Below are positions 55,143 to 63,431 of a stretch of 64,000 bases of DNA, piece after piece. A program made the translations under genes and the position numbers. Under the pieces are notes generated by a model, which made no database searches, was not told the DNA's origin, and saw only the letters and a program-made list of their open reading frames with translations. Location: IMG/VR virus record IMGVR_UViG_3300045988_111617. One strand, 5' to 3'. Positions within the stretch are counted from its first letter, which is position 1; the number at the start of each line of letters is the position of its first letter. The DNA comes from a virus.

Positions 55143-55688
55143 ATGAAACAATTGATAACTATGCTACTTGCATTATTTGCAAGTATAGCTATTTCAGCCC
55201 AGACAAATTCCAATGTCCTTAAATTTATGGGTATTCCTGTAGATGGGAGTAAAACACAGGTAATTCAGAAACTGAAGGAAAAGGGATTTGGGTATGATTC
55301 ATTCAATGATTGTCTTATAGGGCAATTCAATGGCCAGTATTCTCGAATATTTGTATCTACTAATAAAAATAAAGTAGATAGAATAACAGTTTGTAGTATA
55401 GATGGAACAAATGAAGCAAATATTCGTGTTGTATATAACAATCTCCTTCAGCAATTCAACAATAATAGTAAATATATTACCGCTGTAGGAAATAAACCTA
55501 TCCCAGAAGATGAAGATATTTCTTATGAAATATCAGTACATAATAAAAGATATGATGCTGTATTCTATCTAAAGGAAAATAGCACACAGGGAATGGTGTG
55601 GTTTATGATTTACCGTGAGATTAATAATTATTATATTGCCATTTTCTATGAAAATCTCAATAACAGGCCAAATGGAGAAGATTTATAA
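55143..55688 (+). CDS. 181-aa secreted protein (signal peptide, predicted cleavage after ISA)
   Basis: N-terminal MKQLITMLLALFASIAISAQT signal-peptide pattern. Confidence 0.6.
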   Translation: MKQLITMLLALFASIAISAQTNSNVLKFMGIPVDGSKTQVIQKLKEKGFGYDSFNDCLIGQFNGQYSRIFVSTNKNKVDRITVCSIDGTNEANIRVVYNNLLQQFNNNSKYITAVGNKPIPEDEDISYEISVHNKRYDAVFYLKENSTQGMVWFMIYREINNYYIAIFYENLNNRPNGEDL

Positions 55689-55791
55689 ACACATGAAAGA
55701 GTGATGTACCCGGGAATAGTATATTTCCAGAAGCAGGAAGATGTCAGAAAGGCATATGAAATGCTGAAAGATGAACTGTAAATAAGAACAA

Positions 55792-55869
55792 AGGGCTATT
55801 GCTGAATAGTGGAGTTACTTCATAAATTTTGGGCAATCACACTCCACAAACTATTGCATAGCCCTTTTT
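55792..55869 (+). ncRNA. Structured RNA element: outer stem AGGGCTATTGC/GCATAGCCCT, internal loop, inner stem GTGGAGT/ACTCCAC with 25-nt loop, then TTTTT; complex terminator or small ncRNA (Y-RNA-like architecture)
   Basis: Complementarity read directly from sequence. Confidence 0.4.
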
Positions 55870-55922
55870 AAATAGAATACATTTCTTTAATATATTAGTA
55901 CTAATCTTAAAAAAGAAAACAA

Positions 55923-56234
55923 ATGAAAGAAAAAGATTTCAAGTCTCTCTCTGTTGATGAACAGAAGGAGAAAATCAATGAGCTCATCATTTCTTGGTAT
56001 GAGCAGGATTCAGACAACAGATGTGCAGTAGTCATCCTTAGTGATAGGAATAATGAGAAAGATGCAGGAAAGTCTTCATGCTGTATGGTCGGCCCAGGAA
56101 GTCTTATAGCAGTATCCCTTGGAACTGTGTTGAAAAGTAATGAGGACCTCAGGGGGCTGGTAGCTCATAGCTTGATGGGACCTCTTGGAGGACTCTTGGA
56201 TATGTTCAACAAATCAGAAGAAGAGGAGAAATAG
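55923..56234 (+). CDS. 103-aa hypothetical protein (Cys-containing core RCAVVILSD...CCMVGPG); paralog of the interrupted ORF downstream
   Basis: ORF; similarity to translation of 56273-56523. Confidence 0.55.
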   Translation: MKEKDFKSLSVDEQKEKINELIISWYEQDSDNRCAVVILSDRNNEKDAGKSSCCMVGPGSLIAVSLGTVLKSNEDLRGLVAHSLMGPLGGLLDMFNKSEEEEK

Positions 56235-56236
56235 TC

Positions 56237-56523
56237 ATGGGAAGCAAGAGAACTCCAACCAAAGGTGAATAGAAGAGAGTAGATGCCTGCGAGAATATTG
56301 TTAAGTGGGCTTCTGAAGACAAAGAACATAGAGGATGTATAATCATTGCAACAGATGAGGAATCATCAACATGTGCAGTGATTGGAGAGAACCAGAATCT
56401 CATTTCAGCATTTGTGTCAGCTCTTAAAAGAACTCCTGCTCTTAGGAGTATGCTGACTACTGTACTGATGCTTGATATGGTGATTACTGATGGTCCAGAG
56501 AGTGACACTGACAAGGACAAGTA
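56237..56523 (+). pseudogene. Paralog of the preceding gene interrupted by a single in-frame TAG (56270-56272) 11 codons after its ATG; pseudogene or stop-codon readthrough candidate
   Basis: ATG 56237 ... TAG ... then 83 sense codons encoding KWASEDKEHRGCIIIATD, aligning with SWYEQDSDNRCAVVILSD of the paralog; no alternative start codon after the TAG. Confidence 0.4.
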
Positions 56524-56530
56524 GTCTGGA

Positions 56531-61372: not shown

Positions 61373-61614
61373 GACAAACAGTAGGAAACATTCAGGGATA
61401 TGATGTAATTTATGTTCCTGAGAAAAGAATCCTGTTCTGTAAGAACACTGCTGTTCCTTATGACCTTCTTAAAGAGGCTGTCTATGGTGACATGGACAGA
61501 TATAACATACCTCAGAAGAATCTGGTCATAAGGAAAAGTGGTGAAATTATAGAGTTTGGATGCTTGACAACAACTATAGAAAATGTCAAGAACATATTGA
61601 CAAGTATTTATTAA
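61369..61614 (+). CDS. 81-aa hypothetical protein
   Basis: ORF overlapping rsr-like stop by 4 nt. Confidence 0.5.
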   Translation: MRQTVGNIQGYDVIYVPEKRILFCKNTAVPYDLLKEAVYGDMDRYNIPQKNLVIRKSGEIIEFGCLTTTIENVKNILTSIY

Positions 61615-61622
61615 AAAAAACA

Positions 61623-63011
61623 ATGAAACAAACAATTATCCAGAGCACAAAAGATGTGCTCAAGAAGAAAGTAAATTTCTTTGAACAGCAGCAGAAAGAG
61701 CGTATCATTACAGCCTGCAAGTCAGACATGAAGTATGCAGAAGTTCTTGCATTCATCAAGAATGAGATAGAAATGTCTGAACAGGATGTATCTCTCAATT
61801 ACAACATCAAATGTTGGAAGACTGATGGTGCATTCCAGTTTAACAAGGCTGTTGAAGAGATATTTGGCTCAGTAAGGGCTGAGAAAGATGCAGGTCCTTC
61901 AGGCTCTGGTAATATCAATACTTTTGATGTTATCCTTGCTGATGGCTCAAGAACAAAAGTACCTTTCGGTAGGATTTCATTGCCTGAACTTGGTGATGAT
62001 TCCTATATAGAGTTGAACTACTCTAATAATTCTTCAGAACTGGTTATAACAGGAGTGTGCAAGTCCAAGTATCAGTCTATGATTGATGATATTGTAGATA
62101 GGACAAAGGAACTCCTTGCTACAAACTCTATCTACAAGAATCAGGCTCTTGAGATAACAGAGGAAGGCAAAGAGCCTAAGAGACTCAATCTCAGCCATAT
62201 AGATGGTCAGTTGATGGTCTTGTCAAAGCAGACAGAGTTTGACCTTCAGTCTTTGAGGTCAAGAATCCTATATCCTGAGAAATGTCTCAAGGCAGGCATT
62301 CCTCTTAAGTACGGATGTCTGTTTGAAGGGAAGTATGGTACTGGAAAGACTCTTCTTGCTTTCAAACTTGCAAGAGAGGCTACCAAGAACAACTGGACTT
62401 TCATCTATCTTAAGAATCCTGCTCTTCTTGCAGAGACCTTGAGGATGGTGAAAATCATAGACAGGTCATGCAATGGAGTGATAGTCTTTGTAGAGGACAT
62501 TGACCAGGTCACAAGAGGAGAAAGAGATGCATCTCTTCAGGATATTTTGAATACTCTTGATGGTGGTGATACCAAAGATATGAATGTCATTACTTTGTTC
62601 ACTACCAACCACATAGAACTTATTGAACCTACATTCCTCAGAGGAAAGAGAATTGGTTCAGTAATTACTATGGACTGCCTTGATAAGGAGACAGCATTGA
62701 GGTTCATCAAAGAGTCCTTCAAAGATGGATATAAGGTTGGTGAACTTAAAGAGTCCCTTGACCTTATAGAGGAGATGGAGATAGCACCTGCATTCATGGC
62801 AGAGATAGTTGAATCCATCAAGAGTAAACTTATCTTTGCAGAGGACAATCTTGTAACTGATGAGATTCTCAAGAATGCTATCAAGGCTTATGACAGACAG
62901 GTAAACCTCTCAAGAAAGAAGGATAGGAGCATGACTCCTGAGAAGGAGTTCTACCAGAGTATGCAAACTATAATGGCTGAGGGAATCAAACAGGTTCTTA
63001 GAGGCAAATAG
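61623..63011 (+). CDS. AAA+ ATPase (classic AAA clade) with ~230-aa unique N-terminal domain; ATG at 61623 preferred over listed 61560
   Basis: GKYGTGKTLLAFKLA (Walker A), IVFVEDIDQV (Walker B), LFTTNH sensor-1, TFLRGKRIG Arg finger region. Confidence 0.65.
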   Translation: MKQTIIQSTKDVLKKKVNFFEQQQKERIITACKSDMKYAEVLAFIKNEIEMSEQDVSLNYNIKCWKTDGAFQFNKAVEEIFGSVRAEKDAGPSGSGNINTFDVILADGSRTKVPFGRISLPELGDDSYIELNYSNNSSELVITGVCKSKYQSMIDDIVDRTKELLATNSIYKNQALEITEEGKEPKRLNLSHIDGQLMVLSKQTEFDLQSLRSRILYPEKCLKAGIPLKYGCLFEGKYGTGKTLLAFKLAREATKNNWTFIYLKNPALLAETLRMVKIIDRSCNGVIVFVEDIDQVTRGERDASLQDILNTLDGGDTKDMNVITLFTTNHIELIEPTFLRGKRIGSVITMDCLDKETALRFIKESFKDGYKVGELKESLDLIEEMEIAPAFMAEIVESIKSKLIFAEDNLVTDEILKNAIKAYDRQVNLSRKKDRSMTPEKEFYQSMQTIMAEGIKQVLRGK

Positions 63012-63022
63012 GAGGACATATT

Positions 63023-63295
63023 ATGGAAATAAATGTCAATCCAAAAGCATCTGAGTGGATATTGAAGCAACCTTGGCTATCTCAGTTTGTAGACAACTGT
63101 ATGGCAGGAGGTAACACCCCAGCTATGACACTCTCCTATCTTCTTGGTAATGAATCACCTTGCACAGTTAATGAAGCTTTCTATTGGGCAAAGACTCCTG
63201 AAGGTAGAGATTTCTGGAGCAATATTGATGATGAGATGTCAGATATTAGTATAGTAGAAGATTGGGATGATTTTGATGCCACCATAGAGATATAG
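63023..63295 (+). CDS. 90-aa acidic hypothetical protein
   Basis: ORF. Confidence 0.5.
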   Translation: MEINVNPKASEWILKQPWLSQFVDNCMAGGNTPAMTLSYLLGNESPCTVNEAFYWAKTPEGRDFWSNIDDEMSDISIVEDWDDFDATIEI

Positions 63296-63357
63296 AATTA
63301 TTTTTTTTTTAGGAAATGAATATAGACAGGTCTGCTGTGAAGTATACCTGTTTTAAT

Positions 63358-63431
63358 AGGGAGTTAGCTTAATTGGTGAAAGCAGGAGTCTTATACACTC
63401 AAGACTAAGGGTTCAAGTCCCTTACTCCCTA
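63358..63431 (+). tRNA. tRNA-Ile(TAT): tRNA-Ile(TAT)-like; anticodon stem has a G-A mismatch (alternative fold gives a 10-nt loop), preceded by hairpin 63326-63351
   Basis: Acceptor AGGGAGT/ACTCCCT, D-arm GCTT-AATTGGTGAA-AGC, anticodon arm GGAGT-CTTATAC-ACTCA, T-arm AAGGG-TTCAAGT-CCCTT, then CTTTTTAT. Confidence 0.5.

What the first reader, a model, noticed from the sequence alone, without database searches (positions are those of the whole stretch)
55143..63431. Candidate novel accessory system: two AAA+ ATPases flanking a Ro60-like vWA protein, with lysis-type enzymes, regulators and structured RNAs
Between the secreted protein gene and tRNA-Ile(TAT) the + strand encodes, in order: a PAN-like ATPase, a small acidic protein, a multi-pass membrane protein, a Myb-like protein, a signal-anchored glucosaminidase, a membrane protein, a Zn-ribbon protein, the Ro60-like TROVE/vWA protein, a small protein and a second AAA+ ATPase with a novel N-domain. 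tRNA-Lys lies at the left edge and a hairpin plus tRNA-like element at the right edge. An AAA+ / vWA pairing recalls MoxR-vWA chaperone pairs and the proteasome regulatory particle (Rpt ATPases with the Rpn10 vWA subunit), but here the vWA protein is Ro60-like. This combination is not a described phage module. Hypotheses: an RNA surveillance or repair system protecting phage tRNAs and mRNAs, or an ATP-driven remodelling machine acting on host ribonucleoproteins.
Basis: inference. Interest (0 to 1): 0.8.

Follow-up and report, generated by a model that had tools for sequence, protein, structure and literature searches.

The report
Mosaic early-gene arm of crAss-like phage

Summary
The + strand of 55143-63431 encodes a PAN-like AAA+ ATPase, a Ro60-like TROVE/vWA protein, a second AAA+ ATPase, a glucosaminidase and small regulator and membrane genes, bounded by genuine tRNA-Lys(UUU) and tRNA-Ile(UAU).

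The window is a Steigviridae (crAss001-like) phage, and this arm matches crAss001's early-gene arm.

- About 55 crAss001-like Ro60 loci have neither ATPase within 6 kb.
- A sister genome (94-98% protein identity) lacks the PAN-like ATPase and the glucosaminidase.
- Relatives at 82-89% ATPase identity keep only Ro60, an 81-aa protein, the second ATPase and a 90-aa protein.

Three units survive:
- **g11-g12:** a small Whirly/PUR-fold protein plus an AAA+ ATPase that lacks pore loop 1. They are adjacent in 75 of 79 loci.
- **g03-g04-g05:** the PAN-like unfoldase, a small Cys-motif protein and a DUF1360-like membrane protein. This trio also occurs in unrelated phage contigs.
- **Ro60 alone:** a known early gene of crAss001.

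Two partial supports remain. Ro60-type proteins sit beside g11-g12 in two non-sister clades, and the two ATPase cassettes sit close together in a second, distant clade. No Y-RNA partner was found. I judge a real Ro60/vWA link to g11-g12 possible (about 0.25) but unproven.

The parts
55143..55688 (+). g01, a 181-aa secreted or lipoprotein-like protein. It is a neighbour, not part of any conserved unit.
   Evidence: ORF. N-terminal signal-like sequence read directly from the translation. No family hit.
55790..55868 (+). Long imperfect hairpin followed by a U-run; probably the terminator of g01.
   Evidence: Fold of -24 kcal/mol, z = -2.6. The sequence is conserved in L005, L006 and L028.
55923..56524 (+). 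g02 (55923-56234, 103 aa) and a tandem paralog (56237-56524) interrupted by an in-frame TAG at 56270-56272.
   Evidence: ORFs and sequence. The paralogy was read from the translations. g02 is conserved in L005, L006 and L028.
56532..56606 (+). tRNA-Lys (anticodon UUU).
   Evidence: ARAGORN; Rfam tRNA 69.7 bits. Present at the same place in L005, L006, L028 and L060.
56715..57788 (+). g03, a PAN-like classical AAA+ unfoldase (coiled coil, OB-like N-region, AAA domain) with an intact YVG pore loop.
   Evidence: PF00004 at 2e-31. PDB VAT/p97/Mpa at 1e-83 to 1e-53. NCBIfam PAN model aligned over residues 4-350, below its cut-off. Absent from sister genome L028 and from L059 and L060.
57779..58114 (+). 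g04, a small acidic protein with a CGCG motif; it travels with g03 and g05.
   Evidence: Homolog in L144 directly after the g03 homolog (BLASTP 4e-6).
58104..58493 (+). g05, a multi-pass membrane protein with a CPYC motif, DUF1360-like; the third gene of the g03 cassette.
   Evidence: 52-54% identical homologs follow g03/g04 homologs in L144 and L145, and a 26% homolog in L146. The L146 homolog hits DUF1360 at 6e-4.
58490..58768 (+). g06, a small helix-turn-helix / Myb-like protein (below threshold).
   Evidence: Myb_DNA-bind_8 at 1e-4, 22 bits against a cut-off of 27. Diverges quickly among relatives (34-75% identity).
58765..59403 (+). g07, a membrane-anchored N-acetylglucosaminidase (endolysin-type).
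   Evidence: PF01832 at 6.5e-13 and phrog_3513 endolysin. Absent from L028 and L059.
59403..59899 (+). g08 (59403-59813, membrane protein) and g09 (59672-59899, CxxC...CxxC zinc ribbon), overlapping by 142 nt.
   Evidence: ORFs. The overlap is conserved in L005, L006, L028 and L059.
59963..61372 (+). g10, a phage Ro60 homolog (TROVE ring plus vWA domain with MIDAS motif DASGS).
   Evidence: TROVE 46.9 bits; phrog_850 at 2e-35; PDB 9L5Y phiLo Ro60 at 6e-16 over residues 23-417; 67% identical to crAss001 gp96.
61369..61614 (+). g11, an 81-aa protein with a Whirly/PUR-like fold; the obligate upstream partner of g12. Its start overlaps the g10 stop by 4 nt.
61623..63011 (+). g12, an atypical classical-clade AAA+ ATPase (phrog_10440) with a conserved N-domain of unknown fold. 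It has no aromatic pore loop 1, and its Walker B reads ED instead of DE.
   Evidence: phrog_10440 at 1e-56. Homologs align from residue ~22 of the ORF. There is a gap opposite the KYYG/KWVG loop of VAT. Invariant residues listed.
63023..63295 (+). g13, a 90-aa protein that follows g12 in the window's clade.
   Evidence: Conserved after g12 in L005, L006, L028, L059 and L060 at 42-72% identity.
63358..63432 (+). tRNA-Ile (anticodon UAU), preceded by a small hairpin at about 63325-63352.
   Evidence: ARAGORN; Rfam 69.3 bits; sequence. The set of tRNAs at this position differs among relatives.

Best explanation
The stretch is the variable early-gene arm of a crAss001-like (Steigviridae) Bacteroidales phage. 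It is one long + strand run of tightly packed, probably co-transcribed genes, assembled from independent accessory cassettes rather than forming one system.

Shown: three units behave as evolutionary modules.

1. **Ro60 homolog g10.** It is inherited within the crAss001 lineage, where it is an early gene. By analogy with phage phiLo Ro60 (inferred), it binds structured or Y-like RNAs and engages or damps host PNPase, so that phage RNAs survive early infection.

2. **g11-g12.** A small Whirly/PUR-fold protein is always followed by an AAA+ ATPase that has a conserved N-domain but no substrate-threading pore loop 1. I infer that g11 is the adaptor or substrate-recognition subunit, possibly binding single-stranded nucleic acid. 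I infer that g12 is a ring ATPase that remodels or disassembles a complex by gripping it rather than threading it.

3. **g03-g04-g05.** This is a PAN-like unfoldase with intact pore loops, a small Cys-motif protein and a DUF1360-like membrane protein. I infer a membrane-associated protein unfoldase that is dispensable in sister genomes.

The glucosaminidase, the helix-turn-helix and zinc-ribbon proteins and the tRNAs are ordinary, freely exchanged phage genes.
For: **Genome identity.** The portal is 72-76% identical to Steigviridae portals and Ro60 is 67% identical to crAss001 gp96. The crAss001 TROVE gene is an early gene (PMC8375218).

**The block dissolves in relatives.**
- crAss001 and cr112_1 have no AAA+ gene near TROVE.
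- None of about 55 Ro60 loci at 55-72% identity has g11, g12 or g03 within 6 kb.
- L028 lacks g03 and g07.
- L059 and L060 keep only Ro60-g11-g12-g13.
- L061 and L062 keep g11-g12 with no TROVE or vWA gene in 8 kb.
- In the 462-kb phage LR756500 the two ATPase types lie 264 kb apart.

**g11-g12 pairing.** They are adjacent in every neighbourhood type found and in 75 of 79 loci.

**g03-g04-g05.** The trio recurs in L144 and L145, an element that carries an integrase.

**Protein features.** g11 fold. g12 lacks pore loop 1. g03 is PAN-like with a YVG loop.

**Transcription.** No + strand terminator-like site lies between 55600 and 64000. Gene junctions overlap or are at most 63 nt apart.

**Ro60 function.** phiLo Ro60 binds phage Y-like RNAs and attenuates PNPase (PMC12135203).
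Against: Some associations recur more often than simple shuffling predicts.
- A Ro60-type protein lies next to g11-g12 in two non-sister clades of the g12 tree, with different Ro60 subfamilies.
- ORFs carrying a MIDAS (DxSGS) motif lie upstream of g11-g12 in two further neighbourhood types.
- MoxR-vWA pairs follow g12 homologs in N4-like phages and in L038.
- The PAN-like cassette and g11-g12 sit within about 1.5 kb of each other in L146 and L219.
- g10, g11 and g12 look translationally coupled: a 4-nt overlap, then an 8-nt gap.

All functions proposed for g11, g12 and g03-g05 are inferences. No experiment exists for any of them.
Confidence: 0.62

Rival explanations
1. Ro60-g11-g12(-g13) is a functional module in this lineage. 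The Whirly-like g11 and the AAA+ g12 act on the Ro60 ribonucleoprotein, loading or unloading RNAs or recycling the ring. More generally, g11-g12 would serve vWA/MIDAS proteins, much as MoxR ATPases serve their vWA partners.
For: - The order Ro60-g11-g12-g13 is kept in all members of the window's clade down to 77% Ro60 and 82% ATPase identity, with a 4-nt overlap between g10 and g11.
- A remote Ro60-type protein (phrog_850 at 5.5e-33; DUF7788/DUF2828; hhalign 71% probability) sits one gene upstream of g11-g12 in a separate clade.
- vWA-like ORFs lie upstream in type A and type C loci, and MoxR-vWA pairs lie downstream in N4-like phages and L038.
- The g11 fold matches RNA and ssDNA binders: MRP1/2, Pur-alpha and Whirly.
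Against: - About 55 Ro60 loci lack g11-g12.
- Most g11-g12 clades lack any Ro60-type gene within 6-10 kb.
- Gordonia and Brevundimonas phages carry both families but not adjacent.
- The type A vWA-like gene (c5) travels with a PurA-like gene and lies 7 kb from g12 in L006 and L028.
- The vWA assignments of c5 and c126 are weak (E = 0.027 and 4e-4; no PDB profile hits).
- An HNH-like ORF is tolerated between Ro60 and g11 in L006.
Confidence: 0.25
2. One reading: the whole block from the PAN-like ATPase to the second ATPase, with its lysis enzyme, regulators and flanking tRNAs, is one novel accessory system for RNA surveillance or ribonucleoprotein remodelling.
For: - The layout is operon-like, with no internal terminator-like site.
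- The full block is conserved in L005 and L006.
- The two ATPase cassettes sit close together again in L146 and L219.
Against: - L005 and L006 are near-identical genomes (93-99% protein identity), so their conservation says little.
- L028, L059 and L060 lose g03, and variously g07, g04 and g05.
- The tRNA sets differ among relatives.
- Ro60 stands alone in crAss001-like phages.
- L146 and L219 have no Ro60.
- No Y-like RNA was found.
Confidence: 0.05
3. The two ATPase cassettes cooperate in taking over host protein quality control. The PAN-like unfoldase at the membrane, together with the g11-g12 remodeller, would dismantle host complexes early in infection. Ro60 would be an unrelated neighbour.
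For: - The PAN-like cassette and g11-g12 lie about 1.5 kb apart in L146 and L219, and 3.5 kb apart in the window, L005 and L006. These are two distant clades (38-47% identity).
- g03 has all the unfoldase motifs.
Against: - g03 homologs in L144 and L145 have no g12 within 6 kb.
- Most g12 clades have no PAN-like gene nearby.
- Sister genomes lack g03.
- The two types are far apart in LR756500.
Confidence: 0.1

Closest known systems
Phage Ro60 homologs: phiLo Ro60 (PDB 9L5Y/9KOP; PMC12135203) and crAss001 gp96 TROVE protein (early gene; PMC8375218)
   Same: g10 has the TROVE ring plus a vWA domain with a MIDAS motif. It aligns to phiLo Ro60 over residues 23-417 (6e-16) and is 67% identical to crAss001 gp96. 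It sits in the same genome arm, on the same strand, among tRNA genes.
   Different: No Y-like RNA could be found nearby: no Rfam hit, no GNCGAAN(0-1)G motif, and no homolog of the conserved non-coding region that follows gp96 in crAss001. That position is occupied instead by g11-g12-g13.
Bacterial Rsr / Y RNA / PNPase (RYPER) and the rsr-yrlBA-rtcBA RNA repair operon
   Same: A Ro60-type ring protein, presumably acting on structured RNAs, with tRNA genes in the vicinity.
   Different: g10 scores 24 bits against a cut-off of 900 for the NCBIfam Rsr equivalog. There is no RtcB, RtcA or PNPase gene and no YrlA-like RNA. AAA+ neighbours are not part of the bacterial systems (my knowledge of those systems; no such link appears in the papers read).
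MoxR AAA+ / vWA chaperone pairs (including the MoxR-vWA-metallopeptidase pair of N4-like and jumbo phages; PMC7824862)
   Same: An AAA+ ATPase encoded next to a vWA/MIDAS protein. g12 homologs in N4-like phages lie directly upstream of such a MoxR-vWA pair.
   Different: g03 and g12 belong to the classical PF00004 clade, not to the MoxR (AAA_3/AAA_5) clade. The vWA partner here is a Ro60 ring. A third, small Whirly-like protein is the invariant partner. The vWA linkage is not universal.
PAN / Mpa(ARC) / VAT proteasomal and Cdc48-type unfoldases
   Same: g03 has a coiled-coil and OB-like N-region, Walker A and B, a YVG pore loop and arginine fingers. It aligns full-length to PAN models.
   Different: It scores below every curated cut-off (205 against 500 bits). 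It has no C-terminal HbYX motif (it ends ...KTWE). No 20S proteasome gene was seen in the window. It is encoded with a small Cys-motif protein and a membrane protein.
Whirly / PUR / MRP1-MRP2 / SsgA-type beta4-alpha-beta4-alpha proteins
   Different: There is no sequence similarity (3-13% identity). g11 is a single 81-aa unit. Nucleic-acid binding is untested, and the best match (SsgB) is a protein-recruiting factor rather than a nucleic-acid binder.

Membership tests
Ro60 / TROVE family | TROVE (HEAT-repeat ring) domain | tested here: met
   Pfam TROVE 46.9 bits against a cut-off of 23; phrog_850 at 2e-35 over the full length; phiLo Ro60 PDB 9L5Y at 6e-16 over residues 23-417.
Ro60 / TROVE family | C-terminal vWA domain with a MIDAS motif | tested here: met
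   The DASGS motif is in the sequence (FILDASGSM), followed by GGGG...T and a SDSQD segment. The vWA_Ro60 and VWA_2 hits are below threshold (20-21 bits against 27), but the PDB alignment spans the vWA domain.
Ro60 / TROVE family | A Y RNA or YrlA-like partner RNA encoded within about 4 kb on the same strand | tested here: not met
   No Rfam hit at E <= 1 in 49000-64000 other than tRNAs. No GNCGAAN(0-1)G motif on either strand in 52000-64000. No similarity to the region after TROVE in crAss001. Divergent Y RNAs could escape all three tests.
Ro60 / TROVE family | Orthology to bacterial Rsr | tested here: not met
   NCBIfam RNA-bind_Rsr equivalog: 24.2 bits against a cut-off of 900. g10 is a divergent phage branch.
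Ro60 / TROVE family | Binding of misfolded RNA 3' ends or Y RNA; interaction with PNPase | not testable with these tools
   Needs RIP-seq, EMSA or pull-downs.
PAN / proteasome-activating AAA+ ATPases | Coiled coil plus OB N-domain, followed by one classical AAA module with an aromatic pore loop | tested here: met
   NCBIfam PAN models align over residues 4-350 (2e-60). The YVG loop is in 'LSPYVGVTE'. Walker A is GPPGCGKT and Walker B is IFIDEAE.
PAN / proteasome-activating AAA+ ATPases | Curated family score and a C-terminal HbYX motif for docking on 20S | tested here: not met
   205 bits against a cut-off of 500. The C-terminus ...IKTWE has no hydrophobic-Tyr-X motif.
MoxR-vWA chaperone pair | ATPase of the MoxR (AAA_3/AAA_5) clade | tested here: not met
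   Both g03 and g12 match PF00004 best and match VAT/p97/FtsH in the PDB. AAA_5 appears only as a P-loop-level hit.
MoxR-vWA chaperone pair | Conserved adjacency of the ATPase gene and a vWA gene | tested here: inconclusive
   Adjacent in the window's clade and in type B. vWA-like ORFs are nearby in types A and C, in N4-like phages and in L038. They are absent in many other clades.
Processive classical AAA+ unfoldase (for g12) | Walker A, arginine fingers and sensor 1 | tested here: met
   GTGKT, TTNH and R340/R343 are invariant across the family, including N4-like and Gordonia phage members.
Processive classical AAA+ unfoldase (for g12) | Aromatic-hydrophobic-Gly pore loop 1 and a canonical Walker B hhhhDE | tested here: not met
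   There is a 4-7 residue gap opposite KYYG/KWVG of VAT, and no aromatic residue in 'LKNPALLAETLRMVK'. Walker B reads VFVEDID, with E291 and D292 invariant.
Whirly / PUR-like fold (for g11) | beta4-alpha-beta4-alpha topology | tested here: met
Whirly / PUR-like fold (for g11) | Binding of single-stranded nucleic acid | not testable with these tools
   Needs EMSA or CLIP.

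The most novel reading that the evidence does not exclude
A phage-specific two-component machine, made of a Whirly/PUR-fold adaptor (g11) and a pore-loop-less AAA+ ring (g12), uses ATP to remodel vWA/MIDAS proteins. 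In this phage and in a second independent clade its client is the Ro60 ribonucleoprotein. That would be the first ATPase partner known for any Ro60 and a new way to control RNA surveillance during infection. The PAN-like cassette may feed into the same process.
Probability: 0.22. Interest if true: 0.75.

Novelty: new variant of a known kind. Interest (0 to 1): 0.45.

Why it matters
- **Ro60 in crAss-like phages.** These are among the most abundant human gut viruses, and their early genes are almost all of unknown function. Ro60 biology in bacteria and phages currently involves only Y RNAs, PNPase and RNA-repair enzymes. A recurrent ATPase partner would add a new layer and is directly testable in the cultivable crAss001 / Bacteroides intestinalis system.
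- **The g11-g12 pair.** Independently of Ro60, g11-g12 is a widespread gene pair with no assigned function. More than 1,000 g12 relatives were found at E <= 1e-10, one cluster of which is seen on at least 1,000 contigs. g11 has about 73 clusters at 50% identity. The ATPase is unusual in lacking pore loop 1 and having a swapped Walker B.
- **A methodological point.** Operon-like packing in a phage early arm is not evidence for a system.

Tried and rejected
- **Nucleotide search.** Megablast of the block against phage records gave no match, so all comparisons had to be made at the protein level.
- **Search for a Ro60 partner RNA.** Three tests were negative: Rfam at E <= 1, the GNCGAAN(0-1)G motif, and similarity to the conserved region after TROVE in crAss001 or to its 25-nt repeat.
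- **Confirming the vWA calls in types A and C.** Profile searches of the PDB found nothing. Pairwise hhalign among the vWA candidates was weak. I therefore call them vWA-like only, on the MIDAS motif and weak Pfam hits.
- **Small proteins upstream of g12 homologs in N4-like and Gordonia phages.** They are not detectably related to g11 (hhalign probability below 1%).
- **Defence and curated family libraries.** PADLOC and NCBIfam gave only generic AAA+ similarities (IetA, TRIP13). Nothing ties the block to a known defence or anti-defence system.
- **Promoters.** Sigma-70-like sites are no more frequent than in shuffled sequence (35 found against 37.8 expected). No repeated promoter-like motif lies inside the block.
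- **g05 and crAss001 gp97 (DUF1360).** No significant similarity.
- **Bacterial genomes.** Only 15 g12 relatives were found in 185,579 genomes, mostly phage contigs binned into MAGs, so the family is essentially confined to phages.

Full report
**1. Observation.**
- g03 (56715-57788) is a classical AAA+ ATPase: PF00004 at 2e-31, and VAT/p97/Mpa in the PDB at 1e-83 to 1e-53. Its full length aligns to proteasome-activating nucleotidase models (residues 4-350), so 'PAN-like' is a fair description.
- g07 is a membrane-anchored glucosaminidase (6.5e-13).
- g10 (59963-61372) is a Ro60 homolog. It hits TROVE above threshold and phrog_850 'RNA-binding protein' at 2e-35. It aligns to the solved Ro60 of Thermus phage phiLo at 6e-16 across ring and vWA domain, and it has a DASGS MIDAS motif.
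- g12 is a second AAA+ ATPase (phrog_10440 at 1e-56) with an unassigned N-terminal ~200 residues. Homologs align from residue ~22 of the ORF, so its start is probably 61623.
- The flanking RNAs are ordinary tRNAs: Lys-UUU and Ile-UAU, at 69-70 bits. The 'tRNA-like element' is that tRNA-Ile, preceded by a small hairpin.
- The Myb call is below threshold.

**2. What genome this is.** There is no nucleotide-level match in phage records. The portal is 72-76% identical to Steigviridae portals (cr128_1, DAC15, PhiCrAssBcn), and Ro60 is 67% identical to crAss001 gp96. In crAss001 the corresponding arm is the early-gene operon, and the TROVE gene is one of the few named early genes (PMC8375218; PMC10136315). 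The window's block has the same orientation and position next to the tRNA array. Its genes overlap or are separated by at most 63 nt, and no + strand terminator-like site lies inside it. Co-transcription is therefore likely, but that is true of any crAss early arm.

**3. The ten-gene block is not conserved.**
- crAss001 and cr112_1 have no AAA+ gene near TROVE.
- I fetched 79 IMG/VR loci that encode Ro60 relatives. Only the window's own clade carries g11, g12 or g03. About 55 loci at 55-72% Ro60 identity, and all the more distant ones, have none within 6 kb.
- Within the clade, L005 and L006 (93-99% protein identity) share everything. L028 (94-98%) goes straight from tRNA-Lys to g04, so it lacks g03, and it also lacks the glucosaminidase.
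- L059 and L060 (ATPase 89% and 82% identical, Ro60 80% and 77%) keep only Ro60, the 81-aa protein, the ATPase and the 90-aa protein. Their upstream genes are different.
- L061 and L062 (67%) keep the small protein and the ATPase, with no TROVE or vWA gene in 8 kb.
- The tRNAs after g13 differ from genome to genome.
- In the 462-kb phage LR756500, relatives of the two ATPases lie 264 kb apart.

**4. The g11-g12 cassette.**
- I clustered all ORFs in 52 loci that encode g12 relatives (48-96% identity). A g11-like ORF lies directly upstream of the ATPase in every neighbourhood type.
- In a second scan with a family alignment, 75 of 79 loci had a g11-like ORF there. Two of the exceptions are truncated contigs. 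A third has an 88-aa ORF with the same GCL-x-T-x-E motif.
- g11 has no Pfam or PHROG family. A profile search of 1.84 billion representative proteins found 73 clusters, all of them small stand-alone proteins.
- g12 is abundant: 1016 relatives at E <= 1e-10, with one cluster on at least 1000 contigs. It is nearly absent from bacterial genomes.
- g12 keeps Walker A, sensor 1 and the arginine fingers. It has a deletion exactly where VAT carries the KYYG/KWVG pore loop 1, and its Walker B reads ED rather than DE. Both features, and a set of N-domain residues, are invariant even in N4-like and Gordonia phage members.
- The full-length g12 model was too poor to assign the N-domain.

I infer a ring ATPase that remodels a target without threading it, with g11 as its specificity subunit. 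g11 may bind single-stranded nucleic acid.

**5. The g03-g04-g05 cassette.**
- Relatives of the PAN-like ATPase are rare.
- In L144 and L145, an element with an integrase and methyltransferases, the g03 homolog (61-62%) is followed by a g04 homolog (BLASTP 4e-6) and a g05 homolog (52-54%).
- In L146 and L219 a longer PAN-like ATPase is followed by a small CGC-motif protein and a DUF1360-like membrane protein.
- g03 has every unfoldase motif, including a YVG pore loop. It lacks the HbYX docking motif and scores below all curated cut-offs.

I infer a membrane-associated unfoldase that sister genomes can do without.

**6. Ro60 and its missing RNA.**
- Phage Ro60 proteins are known. Iyer et al. 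note TROVE proteins with a tRNA-like partner in jumbo phages (PMC7824862). Chen et al. found YrlA RNAs within 4 kb of Ro60 in 22 phages (PMC4201824). phiLo Ro60 binds two phage-encoded Y-like RNAs and attenuates host PNPase (PMC12135203). This is the best-supported model for g10.
- I found no partner RNA here: no Rfam hit, no GNCGAAN(0-1)G motif, and no counterpart of the crAss001 region after TROVE.
- In crAss001 that 0.9-kb 'non-coding' region is conserved across its relatives. It contains unannotated tRNA-like elements with ~70-nt insertions and a recurring 25-nt motif. In the window's clade, g11-g12-g13 occupy exactly that position.

**7. Do any links between cassettes survive?**
- **Ro60-type proteins and g11-g12.** In 'type B' loci (165-175-kb contigs, ATPase ~54% identical) a 550-595-aa protein lies one small gene upstream of g11-g12. 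It matches phrog_850 over its full length (5.5e-33) and Pfam DUF7788/DUF2828. It is remotely similar to the Ro60 alignment (hhalign 71%, 3.6e-5).
- In a neighbour-joining tree of the ATPase, the window's clade groups with L061 and type A, which have no Ro60. Type B groups with L197, L183 and L179, which also have none. The two juxtapositions therefore look independent.
- **Other vWA proteins.**
  - Type C loci carry a protein with DxSGS...T...TDG motifs (VWA at 4e-4).
  - Type A loci carry a DxTGS protein (VWA at 0.027) upstream.
  - N4-like phages and L038 carry a MoxR-vWA pair downstream.
  - ORFs with a MIDAS motif make up 80 of 757 nearby ORFs against 8 of 498 distant ones, but the loci are highly redundant.
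- **Evidence against a link.**
  - Many g12 clades have no such neighbour.
  - The type A protein travels with a PurA-like gene and lies 7 kb away from g12 in L006 and L028.
  - Gordonia and Brevundimonas phages have both families, unlinked.
  - An HNH-like ORF splits Ro60 from g11 in L006.
- **The two ATPase cassettes.** They are adjacent in L146 and L219 without Ro60, but not in L144, L145, LR756500 or most g12 clades.

I rate a real Ro60/vWA link to g11-g12 at about 0.25, and a link between the two ATPase cassettes at about 0.1.

**8. Comparison with known systems.**
- g10 is a member of the Ro60/TROVE family (ring and vWA tests met). It is not an Rsr ortholog, and no Y RNA has been demonstrated for it.
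- Neither ATPase is a MoxR, so 'MoxR-vWA pair' is an analogy and not a membership.
- The Rpt/Rpn10 analogy has no support beyond domain names.
- PADLOC shows only generic AAA+ similarity.

**9. Verdict.** The 'one system' interpretation is not supported as stated. What is there is a mosaic early arm with three real modules. One of them, g11-g12, is a widespread and uncharacterised gene pair with an atypical ATPase. Its repeated placement next to Ro60-type and other vWA proteins is a modest, testable lead. Interest is moderate (0.45). Novelty is a new variant of known kinds.

Noticed in passing
L001 (crAss001 MH675552, reverse complement) 5810-6716, especially 6084-6227 and 6339-6480: The 0.9-kb 'non-coding' gap right after the crAss001 TROVE gene holds unannotated tRNA-like elements. 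Each has an acceptor stem and a T arm (the first also a D arm), with a ~70-nt insertion where the anticodon arm should be. The first scores 46.6 bits against Rfam tRNA over 144 nt. A 25-nt motif, GTGTAnnAnAGAnTTACTTCAA, recurs 5-6 times, including inside both insertions. The region is conserved in about 45 crAss001-like loci. These elements are candidates for Ro60 partner RNAs. Nothing like them is in the window.
   Followed up: partly
L006 14352-14704; L060 10775-11195: ARAGORN predicts phage-encoded tmRNA genes, with tag peptides ending ...FAVAA, about 3 kb downstream of the g12 homolog in two relatives. The equivalent position lies beyond the end of the window.
   Followed up: no
window 56237-56524: A tandem paralog of g02 is interrupted by an in-frame TAG at 56270-56272. 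It could be a pseudogene, could use a downstream non-canonical start, or could hint at TAG read-through. No suppressor tRNA was found among the 14 tRNAs in the window.
   Followed up: no
window 59672-59813: g08 (membrane protein) and g09 (zinc ribbon) overlap by 142 nt in different frames. The overlap is kept in relatives down to 38% and 67% identity (L059).
   Followed up: no
window 55790-55868: A long imperfect hairpin with a U-run follows the secreted-protein gene (z = -2.6) and is conserved in L005, L006 and L028. It is probably a terminator. It was the only non-tRNA structure noted in the intergenic gaps of the block (the other short gaps were not folded).
   Followed up: partly
window 63358-63432: The phage carries a tRNA-Ile with a UAU anticodon. 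To my knowledge this is an uncommon way for bacteria to read AUA. It fits an AT-rich, CpG-depleted genome (31 CG dinucleotides in 12 kb).
   Followed up: no
L046 7437-9443 (type A loci); L006 18198-19058; L028 17347-18198; L059 16496-17392: A vWA-like protein with a DxTGS motif (phrog_2971) is always followed by an adenylosuccinate-synthetase-like protein (PF00709 at 8.5e-35) in many gut phage contigs. The pair is also seen in relatives L006, L028 and L059, 7-8 kb downstream of g12. It looks like another conserved pair of unknown role.
   Followed up: partly
L052, L053, L054, L048 (g12 homolog region): In several loci the g12-family gene appears split or interrupted by inserted ORFs of 176-252 aa (clusters c217 and c205). 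This suggests mobile insertions (intein, intron or homing endonuclease) in the ATPase gene.
   Followed up: no
L006 9262-9813: A 183-aa ORF with an HNH-like motif (DFHHLDN...CSNCHRKVH) is inserted between Ro60 and g11. In cr112_1 an annotated HNH endonuclease likewise follows TROVE. The 3' end of the Ro60 gene seems to be a hot spot for homing endonucleases.
   Followed up: partly
window 54109-54216: A strong terminator-like hairpin (54109-54146) is followed by two copies, 44 nt apart, of a 28-nt element containing TTAGCTACAATT. This may be promoter or regulatory repeats near the start of the rightward early operon.
   Followed up: no
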